A stretch of DNA of 64,000 bases from a virus. Of this stretch, positions 7,759-61,876 are shown one piece after another. Under the pieces are notes generated by a model, which saw only the letters and a program-made list of their open reading frames with translations, was not told where the DNA came from and did no database searches. Where the stretch lies: positions 1 through 64,000 of the IMG/VR virus record IMGVR_UViG_3300018080_000002. One strand, given 5' to 3'. The position numbers and the translations under genes are program-made. Positions within the stretch are counted from its first letter, which is position 1. Each line of letters opens with the position of its first letter.

Positions 7759-8346
7759 ATGTTGTTCAGTAGCTATATCATTTTTGAGGGTGCAGACGGT
7801 ATTGGAAAAACGGTTTTAGCGAAGAATATGTGTGAGAAATACGGTTACGAGTTTACTTACGAGCCGTTTGGATTCGACTACCATACGGGGTTTTTGCGGA
7901 ATTTAGCTCTCATGAAAGATACCCCGAAATTAGCCAGAGAGTACCTGTTATTGGCGAATAGGGGATTAGGATACGAGAAAGTCAATGAGATCCTATCCAA
8001 TGGCGGCAAGGTTATCTCTGATAGGAGTTATATCAGCGGTGCTGTTTATGCTCATATGGAGGGATTTGATTTTAAGCAATGGTGGAAAATGGCTCGACCG
8101 TTGGTTAGGGATCATGGCATTAGAGTGAAACCGATGTATATTTTTTGTAAAAATAAAAAATACAAAAATAAAGATAACTCAGAGGATAGATACGATAGTC
8201 AGCCTGAGTCGTTTCATAGAGATGTGGAGACTGTGTTCAGGATGGCGTTTAACTATTTCGGGGTAGATCCTGTTGAGTTTGAGATAGATTTCGATCTGCA
8301 ACCTCTGGAAAACCTGGATCGATTATGTGAGGTGATAGATGCTTAA
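7759..8346 (+). CDS. tmk: Thymidylate (dNMP) kinase
   Basis: P-loop IFEGADGIGKT, TYEP, and ISDRSYISG motif. Confidence 0.8.
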   Translation: MLFSSYIIFEGADGIGKTVLAKNMCEKYGYEFTYEPFGFDYHTGFLRNLALMKDTPKLAREYLLLANRGLGYEKVNEILSNGGKVISDRSYISGAVYAHMEGFDFKQWWKMARPLVRDHGIRVKPMYIFCKNKKYKNKDNSEDRYDSQPESFHRDVETVFRMAFNYFGVDPVEFEIDFDLQPLENLDRLCEVIDA

Positions 8347-8941: not shown

Positions 8942-9694
8942 GTGAAAACAACAGTAATGTCGAACCCGTTCACCGATGCCTACATGGCTAGGGAAGTAAA
9001 GGCGTATGGAGTTAAGGAGTATGAGAAAGGTGCTGTAAAGATCCGGTCTATGCCTATCATTGGTCGGTGCGATGACTACCTCAATGTCCAGTTCAGAACT
9101 AAAAGTCCTCTGATGCCGATTATGACTATCGATGGTGAGTTATGGATGAGTTTATCGTTCATGGAAATTCAGAGTCAGTATTTGCCTATCCTGAGAGCTA
9201 AGGGGAAAGTGGCAACTGGAGGCTTGGGTTTAGGCTATTACGCGATGAGAGTTGCACAGAAAGACGAGGTTGAATCGCTCGATGTCTATGAAAAAGATCC
9301 CAGAGTTATTGAGTTTTTCATGGACAAATTCAAACGAAGAAAATGGTTTAAAAAGATCACTTTGATTGAGGGTGATGTAAGACGTTTGATGAAAGATTGC
9401 ACGTATGACCTTGTGTATATGGATATTTATCAGACGTTATTGCCGGATGCTGTAATCAAAGATGCAGAGACGTTCCAGTGGGAGAATTATATCGATACCT
9501 ATCATTTCTGGGGACAGGAGTTGGTGCTGTGGAACGCTCTGGAGCAGGGTATCGATGTGCATATTGAGAAAGATGAGGGTTTGTTTTTCTCCAAGTTTAT
9601 GAAAAGTCCTGGGTTTCAGTTGAAAAATGCAGCTACGCTCAGTGAGAAATTTATACGAAATTGTTTATCGGCTATGGGTAGAGATTATTATTGA
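8942..9694 (+). CDS. Class I SAM-dependent methyltransferase (spermidine-synthase-like)
   Basis: GGLGLGY motif I, VYEKDPRVI, LIEGD, YDLVYMDIY. Confidence 0.7.
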   Translation: MKTTVMSNPFTDAYMAREVKAYGVKEYEKGAVKIRSMPIIGRCDDYLNVQFRTKSPLMPIMTIDGELWMSLSFMEIQSQYLPILRAKGKVATGGLGLGYYAMRVAQKDEVESLDVYEKDPRVIEFFMDKFKRRKWFKKITLIEGDVRRLMKDCTYDLVYMDIYQTLLPDAVIKDAETFQWENYIDTYHFWGQELVLWNALEQGIDVHIEKDEGLFFSKFMKSPGFQLKNAATLSEKFIRNCLSAMGRDYY

Positions 9695-14276: not shown

Positions 14277-15251
14277 ATGACAGAAAAACAAGAGACTGCT
14301 GTTGCAGCAGAAACCAAAGAACCCGCCAAAAAGAAACCTACGAAGAAAGAGCGTAACTACAAACCGGAGGAAACGAATTGGGTCTACAAAAAGCTGTCGA
14401 TCCATTTGTTGAGACCGCAGTTAGGTACGTGTCCAGAGGCATCGATCTATCATGAGCATATTTTGAAAAAAGCTCAGAAAGAGATCAAAAAAGCGAACAA
14501 ACTTACCGCGAAACTGACGAAAGCACTGCAAAAATACAAGGATGTTGAGGAAATTCCTTTTCAGAAACAGATTGAGGAATTGTCCGGTATCATTCGAGCG
14601 TACCAGGAGATCGTCGGTAAAAAAGAGGACATCCCACAGGCTCTTGATGAATTGCTGGAGTATGCGAAAGAGCTGAAAGAGGAATGTGATGAGCTGCTGA
14701 AAGGTGGTGGAGCGCAATCTGCAACAGTTTTCATGAGAGATAAGGATGGTTGGCCGATGATCAGCACTCACATGATTCTCGGAAACCTGAAAGAGAATTT
14801 AAAAATCGTCGTGAATAACTCGGATCTGCCTAAAGAGAGTAGAATTTTAGCCAGCAAAGTAGCTGTTGGAGAGTCTATGGCTTTAGATATTAAGCCCGTA
14901 GAGCAGTTCATTCGACCATCTAAGGACATTGTAAGAAAACCTGATGGAGAACGAGAGTTGCTAGAACGTCCGATAGTCTTTGATAGGCAGGGAGTGAAAA
15001 CGACAGCAATCGCTATCTCAGAGTATTTGCCAGAGGGTACGGAATATGAGGTACATCTTCGTTGTCGTAAACATTCTCTGGTGTTAGAGGCACTTGAGGA
15101 GCTTTTTGACTACGCCAAGAACAACGGACTGGGTTCCTGGAGAGGGTCTGGAAATATGGGTGCCTATGTTTACAAGCTAGAGGATTTGTCTAAGGAACAG
15201 GCTGATGAGATAGCCATCCCTAAACATTTGAAAGATGCTGGCTGGAAATAG
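14277..15251 (+). CDS. Solitary RAMP / Cas7-like RNA-binding protein
   Basis: RAMP-like beta1 (LSIHLLRPQLG), P-x-I-x(5)-G motif (WPMISTHMILGNLKE), SEYLPEGTEYEVHL, and a C-terminal Gly-rich loop GLGSWRGSGNMGAY; no other cas genes adjacent. Confidence 0.75.
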   Translation: MTEKQETAVAAETKEPAKKKPTKKERNYKPEETNWVYKKLSIHLLRPQLGTCPEASIYHEHILKKAQKEIKKANKLTAKLTKALQKYKDVEEIPFQKQIEELSGIIRAYQEIVGKKEDIPQALDELLEYAKELKEECDELLKGGGAQSATVFMRDKDGWPMISTHMILGNLKENLKIVVNNSDLPKESRILASKVAVGESMALDIKPVEQFIRPSKDIVRKPDGERELLERPIVFDRQGVKTTAIAISEYLPEGTEYEVHLRCRKHSLVLEALEELFDYAKNNGLGSWRGSGNMGAYVYKLEDLSKEQADEIAIPKHLKDAGWK

Positions 15252-15315
15252 TTTCCAGTCTTTGTTTTGACGCTGTCTGTCCTCAATCCGGTCTGAGGTA
15301 AAGTTACAATTGAAT

Positions 15316-16446
15316 AGAGGTGGGATACCCTTATGTTTGATGCGTTCTTGTTCGTTGGTGGTTGAGTGATTTATGGTTGAGTCCTGTGAAGTGTTGGTAA
15401 GATCCGCTCTCATCTTATGATGTATGGTGCTATGTCGGTGGTGTCCGTTAAAGTGGTGTGATATCCAATGGAGCGATGGTTAGGTCAAGTCACACAAGAT
15501 GTTGTTTGGGTGGATTTACGCATGGTCAGGTTGTTTTTTGTGATGGTTTTGGTGATATAGGGCTAAATATTGCAGAGGTATACTTTAGATAGTATAGCGA
15601 GGTTTGGTAGCGGTATAGTGCCTTTTTGCTTGGTCGTATGTCGGTATCATGATGTGCTCTGAAGTACATTAGGGTTACGGTGAAATGTAGCATCGTTATG
15701 AATGTTAGGTCACGGTTCCGTAATTTATGGTCAATTGCGTTTTTGGTTTTATGACGTGATTTTGGGCTATGTTATCTGTGGGTTTTGTATGGTGATCTTT
15801 GACAACGCGGTTTTATGTGACGGTAAGGTGTCGTTGGATGTCATGCGGTTTTGTATTGGTAAGGTGCGATTGGGTTGTGTGAGCCAATGTATCGGCTATG
15901 TAATGTAACTTATAGTTCGGTATTGTCGCATATTGGTGCTATTAAGTAAGGCAAGATATAGTAATGCCTCGGTGAGTTTGGGCTATGCCTGACAAAGTAA
16001 TGTCGCGTGAGGTCTTGGTGATCCGATGTATGGTTCGATGCGTTTTTGTGTTGTTTTGGTGTTGTATGATTCAGTAACATAGAATGACTTTTAGTTTTGG
16101 TGGAATGTTGCGAATCTTTGCAGGATCATTTGGCGGTAAACTAAGGTAGCGTCTTATTTATTGTAGGTGTGGTGGATTAGTGTGGGATACTGTTCTGTGG
16201 GGTTTTGGTAAACTGAGCTGCTATGAGTTGATGTCTTGTTCGGGTAAGATTGCTTTTAGTATTGTAGGGCTGCGTTTAATGCAGGCGATGTGATATCCTG
16301 CTCAGTCCAGTTTTGTTATGGTATTTCTAATGTGATGTGCCTTTCGCTTTGCTCATGTGGAGTATCGGTTTAGTAGAGCAAAGTTAAGCTGCGCCGAGTC
16401 TCGTAGCGGTGAGTCGAAGTCACGCGGGATGTTGCTATGTAGTGGC
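15316..16446 (+). repeat. Non-coding 5-nt-periodic array of (NNNNY)n-NNNGGY units; putative guide-RNA array for the upstream RAMP protein
   Basis: Manual parse gives 185 pentamers all ending in T/C and 32 hexamers all ending GGT/GGC, with only three irregular blocks; unit lengths are mostly 31/36/41/46 nt. Confidence 0.85.
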
Positions 16447-16472
16447 ATCCCATACGTTTGTTTAATTTTTTT
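16426..16472 (+). terminator. Hairpin and T-rich tract closing the array
   Basis: GGGATGTTGCTA / TAGTGGCATCCC stem followed by a T-rich run. Confidence 0.5.
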
Positions 16473-17117
16473 GTAAGGAGTAATGTTTTATGGATCATGT
16501 TCAAGGTGATGCAGGAAGTTATGCAATGTCAACGGCCTTTGAGAATAAACGAAATTTAGCGGTATTGGCTGAGAGAGTATCTGTTTTAGAGAATTTTGTT
16601 TGTGAGAAATTAGGTTTTAATAAGGAGTTGGAGACTGTCAGGAATAGAGAGTTTCATACTCAGATGAAATTGTATGAGGACATGGAGGAGAAAATTGGAG
16701 AACTGAGAGGTCAATACCATCAGGTTAAGGAATCGATGCTGAGAGTTGATAAAACGATATATAAGTTAGCTGATGTCATTGAAAAATTGTCGGATAAATT
16801 GGGTGCAACTGAACCGCCAGTGGAGGGATAGATATGGATTTTGATCTTTGTAAATTCGATATGCCCATTTTTCCGGTGGTAGCGGGACAGCATTATATTG
16901 TTCCGTTTGATTCTGAGTTGAGCAATTGGGTGATTTCGTTTTTTGACTGTGAGCCGTTTCCCTGTAAATTGCAGTTTATCGGTTCCGATGAATCTGAGCC
17001 TGGTTTTGATTTTGAGAGAGGTGTTTTTGTTGCTGGTGGATCGAAATTGAATGCGTATTTTCCAGACGGGCAAAGGGGGGATGTAAGAATAACTGTTAGG
17101 TTGGAGAAAAGAAAAGT

Positions 17118-37100: not shown

Positions 37101-39620
37101 ATGAAAGAAAAAAAGACGTTATATTACCTAGTTAAGCAACTTGATGCTTGCTTTAGCTATCGGATTTTATGGCCGAGCAAATACCTCCAGAGGAATCACA
37201 ACTGGGAGTGTTACTACGACAAGATTGATGATTTGTTCTACATGAATCAGGATGGATCGTATAACTACGACAAGATCAAGCCTGGTCGGTTAGAGATCTT
37301 AGAGCAATGTGATTTAGTAGTTCTCCAGAGGGGTACGGATGCAGGACATTTGCAGTTGCTTCGGTTTATCCGAGATCAGTTCAAAAAGCCGATCATATAC
37401 GAATGTTTTACATATGATAATGAGGTGATGACTGAGTTTGGTCTCATGAGGATTGGAGATATAGTTGAAGAGGGATGGGATGTTAAAGTTTATAGCGATG
37501 ACGGTAAGTTGTATCCCATAGATAAGCATTTTTCAAGAGAGTTTGATGGATGGGTTTATCGAATAAAGACTTGGTATTTGTTTGATGAGATAGAGTGTAC
37601 GGATTCTCATAAGTTGATTGCTCATAAAGGCGGTTTTAACGATGAGATATTTGAAGAGATTGAAGTAAAGCATTTAAGAAAAGGTGATTTTTTAAAGATC
37701 CCATTTTTGAAGATCAATTGTGAAGTCCCGATGTCTTTTGATTTAGCGGATTATATTCCTGATGGATGGAATGTTGAAGATGATTTTGTTTATAAAGTGA
37801 GTAATTGTAAGACATTAAGATATATTGATTTTGATTACGATCTTAGTAGGCTGTTCGGTTATTTTTTATCTGAGGGATGCGTCAATAATAGTAATAGGTC
37901 GGTTACGTTTTCTTTCCATATAGATGAAAGAATATATATTGATGATGTTTTGTCTATTGTTAAGTCTAAGTTTGGTCATGATGCTAGTGTTTATTCCGAT
38001 TATCATGAAAGTTCTGTTAGGATTCAGATTAACTCTAAGATAGTAGGTTTATTTTTTAATGATATTTTTGGGGAGAATGTAAGAGCACCTACAAAGAAAG
38101 TGCCTAATTTTTATTTTTCTAGTATTGATCTGCGGTATGTTAAAGAAATGTTATTAGGTTTGTTTCGAGGAGATGGTAGTAACGTTAAAAATATCGGTTT
38201 TCGTCGTGGGGCTAGGTTAACAACATCGTCTAAGACTATGTTGTATCAGGTTCATAATTTGCTTTTAAGATTTGGGATCATTGCCAGTGTTTATAAGTTG
38301 TGGAGATCAGGGAAAGAACATGAAATCCGAGGAAGAACAGTTAATTCAGGTGATGGCTATGAGCTTAAGGTTAATGTAGTTGATGACATAGAAAGTATTG
38401 ATTTTAAAGAAAGATGCGAGTTAAAGACTAAGAATTTGAATCTAAAGGGTAAGGTGGATTTAGAGAATGAGTTTGCTTGGGTAGAGATCCAGAATATTTC
38501 AAGGGAAAAGAAGAAAGTCAAAGTTTTTAATATCTGTGTTAATCCCAGACATACTTATAATGTAAGAACTATCGCCAGTGCAAATAGCGACGACGACTAT
38601 ATTAACGTGCCGGAATGGAACACTGGCTATAGGTATTTTGCGCCAAGAAAAGCAGAGATAGTTCAGATGATTTCTGAGGTTGATGCTGTTACAGTCACAG
38701 TTCCGAGTCTTCGAGATTTGTATAGTAAGTACAATCCAAGAATTAAGATTCTGAAGAATTGTCTGGATTTCGAGAAAATAGATAAATCTCCTGCATTGGT
38801 GAATGACAGCAAGATGCTTAGAGCATCGATGTATAGATGTCCTAGAGATTATCTTGAGGAGTCCTTGAGAGATATTGTTTTAAAGCAGGTCGAGGCAGTC
38901 ATTAATAAAGAGGGTAAGCCTCTCAGCCAGGAGAACATCGATGCTGTTATGAATGGTCCCGTTCAGTTTAACGTGCCTGTGAATTTTGATTGGTATCGAG
39001 CGATACGTGATGACGAGAAAAAATTGTTGCTTGGTTGGGGTGGTTCTCCTACTCATATTCTCGATATTGAGGTGATGAGAGATCCTGTGATGAAAGTAAT
39101 GTCCAAGTATCGGTTTTTACACTTGGTATTTGTTGGATATTTGCATATGATGTCCTTATTGCGAAATTCTCCATATGGCGCGAATGTTCGTAAATGGCTT
39201 ATAGGGATGGATCTGAAGAGATTTTGGATATTCCATTTAGTAGGCGTTAAACACTACTATTCCCTATATAAAGCACTAGAATTTGATATTGGTCTGGCTC
39301 CTGTTTCTCCGGTCCAGTTTAACGCTTCCAAGAGCAATCTTAAGGTGATTGAGTACATGGCATTGGGCATGTATCCGATGGCTAGTGATTTCACCACTTA
39401 TCACGGCGTTATGGTTCCTGAAGGAAAAGAGAATGAGGATGTTGGAGTAGGGAGATTATGTAAGACCCAGGATGATTGGGAGCATAATCTTTATGATGTT
39501 CTGAATGATCACGATATGAGAGCTGAGTCGGTTTACCATAATGACCTGTTTGTAAGAAAGCACTACGACATTGATTTCGAGTCGGAACATTGGGATAAAT
39601 TTTATCGCAGCTTGCTGTGA
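37101..39620 (+). CDS. Glycosyltransferase (GT-B-like) interrupted by an intein
   Basis: Exteins read YRI.WP..LVVLQR..IIYE|SDDD, LGWGGSPTH..D, DIGLAP..FNASKSNLKVIEY. Confidence 0.75.
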   Translation: MKEKKTLYYLVKQLDACFSYRILWPSKYLQRNHNWECYYDKIDDLFYMNQDGSYNYDKIKPGRLEILEQCDLVVLQRGTDAGHLQLLRFIRDQFKKPIIYECFTYDNEVMTEFGLMRIGDIVEEGWDVKVYSDDGKLYPIDKHFSREFDGWVYRIKTWYLFDEIECTDSHKLIAHKGGFNDEIFEEIEVKHLRKGDFLKIPFLKINCEVPMSFDLADYIPDGWNVEDDFVYKVSNCKTLRYIDFDYDLSRLFGYFLSEGCVNNSNRSVTFSFHIDERIYIDDVLSIVKSKFGHDASVYSDYHESSVRIQINSKIVGLFFNDIFGENVRAPTKKVPNFYFSSIDLRYVKEMLLGLFRGDGSNVKNIGFRRGARLTTSSKTMLYQVHNLLLRFGIIASVYKLWRSGKEHEIRGRTVNSGDGYELKVNVVDDIESIDFKERCELKTKNLNLKGKVDLENEFAWVEIQNISREKKKVKVFNICVNPRHTYNVRTIASANSDDDYINVPEWNTGYRYFAPRKAEIVQMISEVDAVTVTVPSLRDLYSKYNPRIKILKNCLDFEKIDKSPALVNDSKMLRASMYRCPRDYLEESLRDIVLKQVEAVINKEGKPLSQENIDAVMNGPVQFNVPVNFDWYRAIRDDEKKLLLGWGGSPTHILDIEVMRDPVMKVMSKYRFLHLVFVGYLHMMSLLRNSPYGANVRKWLIGMDLKRFWIFHLVGVKHYYSLYKALEFDIGLAPVSPVQFNASKSNLKVIEYMALGMYPMASDFTTYHGVMVPEGKENEDVGVGRLCKTQDDWEHNLYDVLNDHDMRAESVYHNDLFVRKHYDIDFESEHWDKFYRSLL
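37404..38585 (+). mobile_element. Intein with LAGLIDADG homing endonuclease (394 aa)
   Basis: Block A CFTYDNEV, block B CTDSHKL, LAGLIDADG helices LFGYFLSEG and LLGLFRGDG, blocks F/G VFNICV..HTYNVRTIASAN, +1 Ser. Confidence 0.85.
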
Positions 39621-60295: not shown

Positions 60296-61876
60296 GTGTC
60301 AAGGTTTAATTCAACAGCAACTAAGGGGGTTCAGACTGTAAAAAATCACGGTGGAGCTGATTCGTACAAACTATCCAAGGAAGTAGAATTGTATTCGGTT
60401 GTTTGCAATAGTTTGATAACGGACAAGTATTACGAGAGTGGAGATAGTCAGCTCGCTAGAATCATAGAGTTGGTAAAAGACTGCGATCCAGTTTTTGTCG
60501 CTAACTTGGCATCCTATGCGCGTAACGAAATGAATTTGAGGACGGTTCCTGTGGTCTTGAGTACGTTGTTATGTAGGAATGTGGGTGGATCTGTAGCCAA
60601 AGATGCGGTTTTCAGGACGGTAAAACGTGCTGATGAAATCACTGAGGTTCTTGGTTATTTCGCTCAATTAAACAAAGACAATTGGAAAAAGATTAGCGAA
60701 AAAGGCCATATCAAGACTAAGAAAATGTCGAAATACTCTCACTCTTTAAAGAGAGGTATTGCGAAGGTATTTGAGTCTGGAAGGTTCGATCGATACCAAT
60801 TTTCTAAGTATAACAGGCAACGAGAATTTTCGTTCAAAGATGCTTTGTTTCTTTGCAATCCTAAGCCTCAGAACGATGAGATGGCTGAACTATTCAAGTT
60901 GATTGCGAGTGATGAATTGGGGTCTGCTGATACTTGGGAAGCTAAACAATCGGCTCTAGGTCAGGAGAATAAGGAGAAATCGGAGGATGAGGCGAAGGTA
61001 TCCAAGCTAGAGGTTTGGAAAGAGATGATTGCGAACAAAAAGCTTGGACACATGGCTTTGCTGAGAAACCTCAACAACATCCTTAAATGTAAGCCTGACT
61101 CTGCTTTTATGGATGATGTATGTCGAGAGCTGGTTCGTGGTGCTAAGAAAAGTAAGCAGTTTCCTTTTAGGTACTGGAGTGCCTATAAGACATTACAGAA
61201 AGATCATGGTCATCACTCAGATCCATTTCTGTTTCAGAAAGTATCTGATGCTCTGGAGCAGGCGATTAGGGATAGTATCAAGAGTATGAGTAAGTTTGAT
61301 GGAAATACTTTGATTGCCTGTGACGTTTCGGGATCGATGGTTACACCTGTTTCAGATAAGTCGATCATTCAAAATATCGATATAGGTTTGGTTCTTGGTT
61401 GTTTGTTAAAAAACGTTCAGAAACTAAATACTATTTTAGGTGTTTTCGGTGACGAATTTAAGATCATTACAGGTATCGGTAATGGGGTTTTGGCTGATGT
61501 CAGGAGTTCATTTGACTGGTCTCATAAAGTCGGTTGGTCGACTATGGGATACAAGGTCATTGAATACCTGAACAAAAGAAATTTGGATGTGAATCAGGTT
61601 CTTGTTTTCACTGACTGTCAGGTTTATGGATCTGCTGGAAATGGATACTACAGCAATGGTAATGAGATGGAGAGACAGTGGAGTATTTACAAGAGCAAGC
61701 ATCCTAATGCAAAGCTCTATATGTTCGATCTTTCTGGATATGGAAACGTGCCTCTAAGATTGGACAAAGGCGATGTTATTCATGTCGCTGGCTGGTCCGA
61801 TAGGATCTTTGAGGCGGTTGAGTATCTAAGAAAGGGATCTGATGCAGTAGATATGATTATGAACTATACTAGGTAA
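60296..61876 (+). CDS. rsr: Ro60/Rsr TROVE-domain RNA-binding protein
   Basis: YARNEMNLRTVP, RADE, KYNR, TWE, MALLRNL, QFPFRY, vWA MIDAS motif CDVSGSM, FTDCQ, GWSD. Confidence 0.9.
   Translation: MSRFNSTATKGVQTVKNHGGADSYKLSKEVELYSVVCNSLITDKYYESGDSQLARIIELVKDCDPVFVANLASYARNEMNLRTVPVVLSTLLCRNVGGSVAKDAVFRTVKRADEITEVLGYFAQLNKDNWKKISEKGHIKTKKMSKYSHSLKRGIAKVFESGRFDRYQFSKYNRQREFSFKDALFLCNPKPQNDEMAELFKLIASDELGSADTWEAKQSALGQENKEKSEDEAKVSKLEVWKEMIANKKLGHMALLRNLNNILKCKPDSAFMDDVCRELVRGAKKSKQFPFRYWSAYKTLQKDHGHHSDPFLFQKVSDALEQAIRDSIKSMSKFDGNTLIACDVSGSMVTPVSDKSIIQNIDIGLVLGCLLKNVQKLNTILGVFGDEFKIITGIGNGVLADVRSSFDWSHKVGWSTMGYKVIEYLNKRNLDVNQVLVFTDCQVYGSAGNGYYSNGNEMERQWSIYKSKHPNAKLYMFDLSGYGNVPLRLDKGDVIHVAGWSDRIFEAVEYLRKGSDAVDMIMNYTR

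What the first reader, a model, noticed from the sequence alone, without database searches (positions are those of the whole stretch)
15316..16446. Array grammar: NNNNY pentamers reset by NNNGGY hexamers, giving unit lengths of 5n+1
Manual parse, for example from 15825: aaggt gtcgt tggat gtcat gcggt tttgt ATTGGT | aaggt gcgat tgggt tgtgt gagcc aatgt ATCGGC | tatgt aatgt aactt atagt tcggt attgt cgcat ATTGGT. Hexamers end at 15321, 15362, 15398, 15439, 15480, 15511, 15547/15553, 15579, 15614, 15645, 15681, 15716, 15747, 15783, 15824, 15860, 15896, 15937, 15973, 16019, 16060, 16101, 16137, 16168, 16209, 16245, 16286, 16322, 16369, 16410 and 16446. All 185 pentamers end in T or C. Position 4 was G in 36 of 59 pentamers in a counted sample. 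All 32 hexamers end GGY and 25 are NNYGGY. Only three blocks are irregular (two 4-mers and one extra 6-mer). Units share no sequence beyond this register, so standard CRISPR and tandem-repeat finders would probably miss it. Inference: the +1 phase break marks guide boundaries or processing sites.
Basis: seen in the sequence. Interest (0 to 1): 0.9.

Follow-up and report, generated by a model that had tools for sequence, protein, structure and literature searches.

The report
Phage VIPR staggered guide-RNA array
The odd 5-base rhythm is real and marks a roughly 30-unit guide-RNA array of a phage VIPR system, a CRISPR-related RNA-guided DNA silencer first described in 2026, so it is a striking new example of a known kind.

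Summary
In window 15316-16446 (+), every fifth base is T or C. The frame is reset by NNNGGY hexamers, giving units of 31, 36, 41 or 46 nt. One unbroken chain runs for 122 blocks. Markov shuffles reach at most 21 blocks, and the rest of the 157-kb phage genome at most 19.

The gene just upstream (14277-15251) folds as a lone Cas7/Csm3-like RAMP. It shares the G-loop GxGxWR with the proven Vipr protein of phage SUSP1. Six related phage contigs have diverged completely in array sequence. All carry the same grammar, five directly downstream of their homologue, and no other neighbouring gene is conserved.

This matches VIPR systems (bioRxiv 10.64898/2026.04.26.720920 and .720927). In those, one Vipr protomer binds each 5-nt repeat, a narrow pocket admits only a pyrimidine, and variable bases read dsDNA. 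The preprint also names YNNNG repeats and "staggered" arrays offset by 1 nt.

Only Y is fixed here. The base before it is G in about 60% of blocks, and full GGY occurs only at unit ends. There is no conserved 3' tail.

Base composition suggests the first two bases of each block spell codon positions 1 and 2. No targets and no RNA data were obtained. This scan has already met VIPR on other DNA, including staggered arrays. Verdict: new member of a known kind.

The parts
14277..15251 (+). vipr gene: a lone Cas7/Csm3-like RAMP of 324 aa (P0001). It has a Lys-rich N-terminus, a long helical insertion (about residues 55-145) and the G-loop GLGSWRGSGNMG (residues 284-295).
   Evidence: AlphaFold model pLDDT 82, pTM 0.76. 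Best PDB matches are all Cas7 backbone subunits: Csm3 9g9a_D Z 12.5, 6ae2_B Z 12.4, type VII Cas7 8yhd_A Z 11.8; Foldseek E 4.5e-6. BFVD match to lone phage RAMPs of about 195-250 aa. G-loop, helix-1 and beta-1 motifs align with SUSP1 Vipr. More than 135 homologues; 959 by profile search.
15240..15270 (+). Terminator-like hairpin plus T-run overlapping the vipr stop codon. It may separate or attenuate vipr and array transcription.
   Evidence: Consensus scan. Function not shown.
15316..16446 (+). Staggered vrRNA-like array of about 31 units, each made of 4-8 NNNNY pentamers (one longer) plus one NNNGGY hexamer. There are no ORFs, no conserved repeat and no per-unit tail.
   Evidence: The same grammar occurs next to vipr homologues in L001, L003, L005, L007, L008 and L009.
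16426..16472 (+). 11-bp hairpin (16426-16452) overlapping the last unit, followed by a T-rich tract. Candidate array terminator or 3' end structure.
   Evidence: RNA fold -20.9 kcal/mol, z -1.9. Read in sequence. Function inferred.

Best explanation
The tract is the guide-RNA array of a phage-encoded VIPR (Viral Interference Programmable Repeat) system, and the upstream gene 14277-15251 is its Vipr protein.

By analogy with the solved SUSP1 system, the array is transcribed and Vipr protomers polymerise on the RNA, one protomer per 5-nt block. The invariant pyrimidine of each block sits in a pocket too narrow for a purine. The preceding, mostly-G base stacks on the G-loop tryptophan. The first two bases of each block are presented to read double-stranded DNA with one target base skipped per block, so the target is read in steps of 3. 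The resulting filament silences transcription of rival mobile elements.

The NNNGGY hexamer adds one base and breaks the 5-nt register. This delimits about 31 separate guides of 5-9 blocks, a 'staggered' array.

Shown here: the grammar, its statistical reality, its conserved linkage to a Cas7-like gene, and motif-level homology to a proven Vipr.

Inferred: transcription, filament formation, the pairing rule, DNA silencing, and what the hexamer does physically (cleavage site or filament stop).
For: (1) The grammar is real and unique in the genome.

(2) The adjacent protein has a Cas7/Csm3 fold and stands alone. In 7 loci no other gene within about 8 kb is shared.

(3) It is homologous to bona fide SUSP1 Vipr (KT454805, L006:28474-29061:-, whose D177/W178/R179 numbering fits the cryo-EM paper):
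- blastp of SUSP1 Vipr against family member P0041 gives 27% identity over 182 aa, E 2e-5 in a 263-sequence database;
- a profile of the short relatives scores SUSP1 Vipr at 16.9 bits;
- hhalign and MAFFT align GVGDWR with GLGSWR, EM (71-72) with HM (165-166), and keep L15, K78, G174, R179 and G183 invariant.

(4) Contacts fit the array. The residues that hold Y3 and G2 in SUSP1 (R179, W178, M72) are kept. D177, which reads G1, is S287 here, and H17 has no counterpart. The array in turn keeps Y at 100% and G2 at 58-62% but has lost G1.

(5) Six diverged relatives (40-60% protein identity, no DNA similarity) carry the same grammar, five of them directly downstream of vipr (L001's main array lies 4.4 kb away on the other strand). 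These arrays span 0.8-3.9 kb. Pooled, they give 196 clean units, mostly of 5-9 blocks.

(6) My chain parser also picks out the known SUSP1 vrRNAs, a positive control.

(7) The literature describes one protomer per pentanucleotide, a purine-excluding Y pocket, alternative YNNNG/NNNGG/NNNNG repeats, staggered arrays offset by 1 nt, and seven types with only six vap genes. Non-canonical 5-mers such as WGT/NN are reported in 10.64898/2026.10.21.760802.

(8) N1 best fits sense codon position 1 (log-likelihood +45.6, next best -6.5). N2 best fits sense codon position 2 (+14.8, next best -14.4). N3 fits no codon position. This is what the published Y-opposite-wobble, NN-reads-codon-positions-1-2 rule predicts.
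Against: There are no RNA data.

No target was found:
- the phage's own genome plus six related loci under 11 pairing rules gave nothing above shuffles;
- blastn of decoded guides against 50,697 phages gave nothing;
- four exact pattern scans of IMG/VR and JGI metagenomes gave nothing.

Sequence homology to SUSP1 Vipr is weak (hhalign probability 4.9%) and rests on motifs plus fold.

No conserved accessory (vap) gene and no conserved 3' tail or pseudoknot are present, unlike the characterised type II systems. With only two informative bases per block, a 6-9-block unit specifies just 12-18 nt, fewer than the 9-16 repeats of SUSP1 vrRNAs.

The codon-like composition could instead reflect RNA-protein contact preferences.
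Confidence: 0.88

Rival explanations
1. The Cas7-like filament on this array targets RNA, as type III Csm3/Cmr4 backbones do, or uses a different pairing rule (3 or 4 bases read per block), rather than silencing dsDNA by the published 2-plus-1-skip code.
For: The closest solved folds are RNA-targeting Csm3/Cmr4/Cas7-11. Position 3 of each block is free, and in the window it resembles codon position 3. Stop triplets in N1N2N3 are under-represented, 53 observed against 76.8 expected.
Against: N3 does not track codon position 3 across loci. The stop deficit is largely general TA avoidance: CTA, GTA and ATA are also depleted, while TGA is not. The G-loop and helix-1 motifs match a DNA-silencing Vipr. 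An exact 21-mer built under the 3-base rule had no hit, and blastn of five decoded guides had none.
Confidence: 0.07
2. The array is a decoy or sponge. It does not guide its own Vipr. Instead it titrates or redirects Vipr proteins of rival phages, like the satellite-borne solo vrRNAs.
For: Solo vrRNAs that redirect VIPR are documented (10.64898/2026.10.15.759431). No targets were found for any unit.
Against: The array sits directly downstream of its own vipr gene, and this linkage holds in five of the six other loci examined; L001's main array lies 4.4 kb away on the opposite strand. The scaffold relaxation matches changes in the cognate protein's own G-loop.
Confidence: 0.03
3. The tract is a decayed pentanucleotide satellite or a DNA-level structural element (origin, packaging site or curved DNA) with no RNA function.
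For: It is G+T-rich, non-coding and periodic. The mean period of about 5.14 bp is close to half a helical turn.
Against: Pyrimidine is kept in 217 of 219 blocks while all other positions are free. The strand asymmetry is strict. The same grammar is kept in relatives with no sequence similarity, always linked to a Cas7-like gene. No other place in the genome shows it.
Confidence: 0.02

Closest known systems
VIPR systems with staggered vrRNA arrays and YNNNG-type repeats (bioRxiv 10.64898/2026.04.26.720920 = PMC13142463; fig. S18 legend and supplementary methods)
   Same: Phage-encoded lone RAMP (Vipr) next to a long intergenic tract of pentanucleotide repeats with a fixed pyrimidine. Successive guides are offset by 1 nt. 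There are no CRISPR repeats and no cas genes.
   Different: I could read only the legend, not the figure or the tables, so identity of architecture is inferred. Here the full GGY occurs only in the boundary hexamer. Internal blocks fix only Y, with G at 58-62% before it. Arrays reach about 31 units here and at least 84 in L005. According to the preprint, staggered arrays were not validated by sRNA-seq.
Type II VIPR of Escherichia phage SUSP1 (KT454805; Vipr 195 aa; cryo-EM in bioRxiv 10.64898/2026.04.26.720927)
   Same: One protomer per 5-nt repeat is expected. G-loop W and R, helix-1 M and the beta-1 RPxL motif are shared. Both have a helical bundle inserted after beta-1. Both are phage-borne, with the array downstream of vipr.
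   Different: SUSP1 has 9-16 strict YNNGG repeats per vrRNA, an invariant 3' tail with a pseudoknot, only four vrRNAs and a vap1 partner. Here there are 5-9 relaxed blocks per unit, no tail, about 31 contiguous units and no conserved partner. The protein is 324 aa with a much longer helical insertion, and D177 and H17 (the G1 readers) are not kept.
Non-canonical period-5 VIPR-like clusters (bioRxiv 10.64898/2026.10.21.760802: GAC/NN, CAC/NN, WGT/NN, TGH/NN)
   Same: 5-nt periodic arrays next to Vipr-like folds, with a relaxed or altered fixed trinucleotide.
   Different: Those clusters are described as three constrained plus two free positions, repeated about 10 times. Here effectively one position is fixed and one is biased, with a +1 hexamer reset.
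Type III CRISPR-Cas backbone (Csm3/Cmr4) on crRNA
   Same: Best structural match of the protein. An oligomeric RAMP backbone reads the guide with a fixed nucleotide period and flips bases with a thumb.
   Different: Its period is 6 nt, not 5. It has repeat-spacer arrays, Cas10, Cas5, Cas6 and Cas11 partners, and it targets RNA. None of these is present here.
TIGR-Tas (PMC12045711)
   Same: Phage-borne, non-CRISPR tandem guide arrays with 36-nt units that standard repeat finders miss.
   Different: TIGR needs a Nop-domain Tas protein and conserved edge/loop repeats or stem-loops with box C/D motifs. Here the protein is a RAMP and there are no conserved repeats.

Membership tests
VIPR (Vipr + vrRNA) | Lone RAMP-fold Vipr protein with RRM core, G-loop, thumb hairpin and helical bundle | tested here: met
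   Model pLDDT 82. Csm3, Cmr4 and type VII Cas7 are the top hits, Z 10-12.5 over 140-180 residues. A beta-hairpin at 229-248 and helices at 55-142 are present. The G-loop is GLGSWRGSGNMG.
VIPR (Vipr + vrRNA) | Sequence homology to an experimentally proven Vipr (SUSP1) | tested here: inconclusive
   blastp of SUSP1 Vipr against family member P0041 gives 27% over 182 aa, E 2e-5 in a 263-sequence database. The profile of short relatives scores 16.9 bits. hhalign aligns only the G-loop, probability 4.9%. MAFFT keeps L15, K78, G174, R179 and G183 invariant, and W178 nearly so. The motifs agree but the statistics are weak.
VIPR (Vipr + vrRNA) | Adjacent non-coding tandem pentanucleotide repeats with a fixed pyrimidine (GGY/NN or a related consensus such as YNNNG) | tested here: met
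   217 of 219 blocks end in Y, and G precedes it in 58%. The same holds in six relatives. It is the relaxed YNNNG-like form, not strict GGY/NN.
VIPR (Vipr + vrRNA) | Viral location, with no CRISPR repeats or other cas genes at the locus | tested here: met
   The genome is a 157-kb phage-like contig encoding DnaB, primase, RecA and an exonuclease. TRF and Rfam find no repeat array. No neighbouring gene is conserved besides vipr.
VIPR (Vipr + vrRNA) | Accessory vap gene in an operon with vipr (typical, not universal) | tested here: not met
   No ORF within about 8 kb is shared among the 7 loci except vipr. The preprint lists seven types but six vap genes, so a vap-less type is compatible.
VIPR (Vipr + vrRNA) | Conserved 3' tail or pseudoknot capping each vrRNA (type II architecture) | tested here: not met
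   Units abut directly and share no sequence. There is only one hairpin, at the array end. This fits the 'staggered' architecture rather than type II.
VIPR (Vipr + vrRNA) | Array is transcribed and the RNA co-purifies with Vipr | not testable with these tools
VIPR (Vipr + vrRNA) | Guides match natural dsDNA targets under the 1-nt skip (xNN) rule | tested here: inconclusive
   No target was found, but the databases and the exact-match scans were weak tests. The N1/N2 composition fits sense codon positions 1 and 2.
CRISPR-Cas class 1 (type III/I/IV) | Repeat-spacer array and a multi-subunit effector with 6-nt guide periodicity | tested here: not met
   There is no direct repeat family, the period is 5 rather than 6, and there are no other cas genes nearby.
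TIGR-Tas | Nop-domain Tas protein plus edge/loop repeats or stem-loop units | tested here: not met
   No Pfam Nop hit, and the fold is RAMP. There are no conserved repeats and no inverted repeats in the array.

The most novel reading that the evidence does not exclude
In this tail-less clade the +1 hexamer itself is the punctuation. Adding one base (NNNGGY) throws the next pyrimidine out of the 5-nt register. A Vipr filament therefore stops and a new one nucleates, cutting a single transcript into dozens of 5-9-protomer guide particles without conserved repeats, tails, ribozymes or perhaps any nuclease. Loss of the G1-reading residues (D177 to S287, no H17 counterpart) has freed a third base per block. 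This would be a minimal way to encode large guide libraries (31 units here, at least 84 in a relative).
Probability: 0.25. Interest if true: 0.6.

Novelty: new member of a known kind. Interest (0 to 1): 0.45.

Why it matters
VIPR is a months-old class, and the published experiments cover mainly type II loci with a few tailed vrRNAs. This locus and its relatives document the little-described staggered, tail-less architecture at scale: about 31 units here and at least 84 units over 3.9 kb in L005.

They give an explicit grammar: 5n+1 units, only the pyrimidine fixed, and full GGY only at boundaries. They link the relaxed scaffold to specific changes in the protein's G-loop. They also give compositional evidence that the codon-position-1/2 reading rule still applies.

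This yields a simple detector for such arrays, namely a chain of Y every 5 nt with GGY-gated +1 steps. It also offers a compact natural system for testing how guide boundaries are set without repeats or tails.

It does not overturn anything. This scan has already met VIPR loci, including staggered ones, on other genomes.

Tried and rejected
- **Standard detectors.** TRF found only an 11-nt micro-repeat. Rfam at E <= 1 found nothing. blastn of the tract against phages found nothing.
- **Relatives by pattern.** The search for related loci with Vipr in IMG/VR found none. Relatives came instead from the protein search.
- **Protein-coding reading.** Rejected: there are no long ORFs and the period is 5, not 3.
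- **TRAP-like ring-binding RNA, DGR-mutated template, primase or packaging site, half-helical-turn DNA phasing.** I considered these before the protein fold was known and dropped them once the neighbour proved to be a Cas7-like RAMP with a Vipr G-loop.
- **TIGR-Tas.** Rejected on protein fold and lack of edge/loop repeats.
- **Targets.** The phage's own genome with Y masked, and 241 kb of own genome plus related loci under 11 pairing rules, gave nothing above shuffles. blastn of five decoded guides under a 3-base contiguous rule against phages gave no match. Exact IUPAC scans also found nothing: one 21-mer under the 3-base rule in IMG/VR, two xNN patterns from L005 units in IMG/VR, and one in JGI metagenomes. 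These are weak tests because they need exact matches and the host is unknown.
- **'Whole codon' reading (N1N2N3 as in-frame codons).** Triplet usage correlates with codon usage, and stops are about 30% depleted. However, the deficit is mostly TA avoidance and N3 does not follow codon position 3 across loci, so I do not adopt it.
- **Phase heterogeneity between units.** Not significant, z 1.45.
- **Shared ancestry of units in the window.** No excess over shuffles. Only L005 shows duplicated units.
- **Thumb residue R138 equivalence.** Two alignments disagree, so I make no claim.
- **Not run.** Complex prediction, because filament formation needs the RNA.

Full report
**Observation**

The tract between the stop codon at 15251 and the next gene at 16490 has no long ORF and is G+T-rich: T 471, G 366, A 246, C 155.

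27 of 31 units are exact 5n+1 strings whose pentamers all end in T or C. The irregular units are two of 35 nt, one of 47 nt and one lone extra hexamer.

An optimal parse of 15322-16446 gives 187 pentamers, 31 hexamers (30 ending GGY) and one 4-mer. Only 2 of the 219 blocks do not end in a pyrimidine.

In the 168 regular pentamers, position 5 is T 141 and C 27. Position 4 is G in 58%. Positions 1-3 are free.

All 32 hexamers end GGY, and 25 of them are NNYGGY.

The pyrimidine autocorrelation peaks at lags 5, 10 and 15 and then at 21, 26, 31, 36 and 41. The +1 reset is therefore visible without any parse.

A chain statistic allows a step of 5 to any Y and a step of 6 only through GGY. It gives 122 consecutive blocks. 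The maximum was 21 in 500 Markov-1 simulations, and at most 19 anywhere else in the 157,357-bp genome on either strand.

TRF, Rfam and blastn see nothing. Units do not share sequence beyond chance.

**The neighbouring gene**

ORF 14277-15251 (P0001, 324 aa) has no Pfam or PHROG hit but has more than 135 homologues in metagenomic phage-size contigs.

Folded with 43 homologues, the model has pLDDT 82 and pTM 0.76. Its best matches in the PDB are exclusively Cas7-family backbone subunits:
- Csm3 9g9a_D, Z 12.5, 160 residues, rmsd 4.0;
- Csm3 6ae2_B, Z 12.4;
- type VII Cas7 8yhd_A, Z 11.8;
- Cmr4, Csf2 and Cas7-11 domains.

Among viral models it matches lone phage RAMPs of about 195-250 aa.

**Conserved linkage**

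I fetched six other contigs carrying homologues at 40-60% protein identity.

- Each has a gene-free tract with the same grammar, on the same strand and directly downstream of the gene. The exception is L001, whose main array lies 4.4 kb away on the other strand.
- L005 carries 3.9 kb with at least 84 units, and L009 has 34 units.
- Pooled, there are 196 clean units, mostly of 5-9 blocks (26-46 nt). Position 4 is G in 62% and position 5 is T 83% / C 17%. The hexamer is NNNGGY with Y at its third position in 66%.
- Boundaries have a signature. G is enriched at positions 3 and 4 of the first pentamer, and position 4 is G in 79% of last pentamers.
- No other ORF within about 8 kb is shared among the seven loci.

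**Identification**

A literature search found the VIPR preprints.

- VIPR systems are phage-encoded. They consist of a lone ancestral RAMP (Vipr) plus vrRNAs made of tandem pentanucleotide repeats, canonically YNNGG.
- One Vipr protomer binds each repeat. Y sits in a pocket that sterically excludes purines. G2 stacks on W178, and G1 is read by H17 and D177.
- The NN bases pair to dsDNA with one target base skipped. That base usually falls on the codon wobble position, and binding silences rival phages and satellites.
- The supplementary methods list alternative NNNGG, YNNNG and NNNNG repeats.
- The text and the fig. [quoted passage not shown]
- A later preprint reports 21 period-5 clusters with non-canonical scaffolds.

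As a control I located the SUSP1 locus in KT454805. GGY runs at period 5 flank a 195-aa gene whose D177/W178/R179 numbering fits the cryo-EM paper. My chain parser flags those vrRNAs.

**Membership**

Direct homology to SUSP1 Vipr is weak but consistent.

- blastp of SUSP1 Vipr against family member P0041 gives 27% over 182 aa, E 2e-5 in a 263-sequence database.
- A profile of the shorter relatives found in the 1.8-billion-protein search (959 hits) scores SUSP1 Vipr at 16.9 bits.
- hhalign and MAFFT align GVGDWR with GLGSWR and E71-M72 with H165-M166. They keep L15, K78, G174, R179 and G183 invariant.

The residues that hold Y3 and G2 are retained. D177 is serine here (glutamine in most relatives), and H17 has no counterpart. 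This parallels an array that keeps Y, half-keeps the preceding G, and has lost the first G except in the boundary hexamer. The correspondence is an inference from alignment, not a structure.

The equivalence of thumb residue R138 is ambiguous, so I make no claim about it.

**Pairing rule**

No targets were found by any route: the phage's own genome, related loci under 11 rules, blastn against phages, and four exact scans of IMG/VR and JGI metagenomes. These tests have little power, because the host is unknown and the scans needed exact matches.

Composition is informative, though. Using codon-position frequencies from each locus's own long ORFs:
- block position 1 best fits sense codon position 1 (log-likelihood +45.6, next best -6.5);
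- block position 2 best fits sense codon position 2 (+14.8, next best -14.4);
- block position 3 fits no codon position.

This is what the published rule predicts for guides identical to the coding strand, with Y opposite the wobble base.

The alternative that whole codons are read had some support: triplet usage correlates with codon usage, and stops number 53 against 76.8 expected. I set it aside because the deficit tracks general TA avoidance and N3 is inconsistent across loci.

**Anatomy in the window**

- A terminator-like hairpin overlaps the vipr stop codon.
- The array runs from about 15305/15316 to 16446.
- An 11-bp hairpin at 16426-16452, followed by a T-rich run, ends it.
- No sigma-70-like promoter stands out.

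**Verdict**

The inference that the +1 break marks guide boundaries agrees with the published notion of staggered vrRNA arrays, but it remains untested at the RNA level.

The element is a VIPR system of the relaxed-scaffold, staggered, tail-less kind, with no conserved accessory gene. The class was published in 2026, and this scan has already reported VIPR loci on other genomes, including staggered ones. It is therefore a new member of a known kind.

The added value is an explicit grammar, the protein-array co-variation, and compositional support for the reading rule.

Noticed in passing
window 60296-61876 (+): A 526-aa protein with a TROVE (Ro60-like) domain, E 5.8e-18. A phage-encoded Ro homologue would be expected to have a Y-RNA-like partner nearby. 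I did not look for one.
   Followed up: no
window 37101-39620 (+): An 839-aa ORF carrying LAGLIDADG and intein-splicing domains. Another first-reader note says the intein splits a glycosyltransferase.
   Followed up: no
window 1-64000: Nearly all long ORFs are on the + strand, with a strong, uniform G>C skew of about +0.3 throughout. The unconstrained array positions share this composition.
   Followed up: partly
L003 1930-3053: In a related phage contig (GCA_975848745.1), IS605 OrfB/TnpB-like genes (HTH_OrfB_IS605, OrfB_IS605, Cas12f1-like TNB) lie about 2 kb upstream of vipr. Arrays lie on both sides of vipr.
   Followed up: no
L007 9335-9544: A 69-aa ORF between vipr and the array is a fragment homologous to Vipr, 33-49% identical to the family. 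It suggests a partial duplication of the effector gene.
   Followed up: no
L008 11165-12898 and L009 10472-12193: Two relatives share a roughly 575-aa gene immediately after the array, 41% identical to each other; the L008 copy has a Pfam SMC_N hit. It is a possible lineage-specific accessory gene and is absent from the window's locus.
   Followed up: no
L005 7687-7753 vs 7913-7985, and 9505-9545 vs 9589-9629: Near-identical duplicated units inside the 3.9-kb array. They differ mainly at block positions 2 and 4, which shows that units can spread by local duplication.
   Followed up: partly
window 15756-15771 vs 15972-15987: Two units share a 16-nt in-register stretch at 94% identity. Overall sharing in the window is not above chance.
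   Followed up: yes
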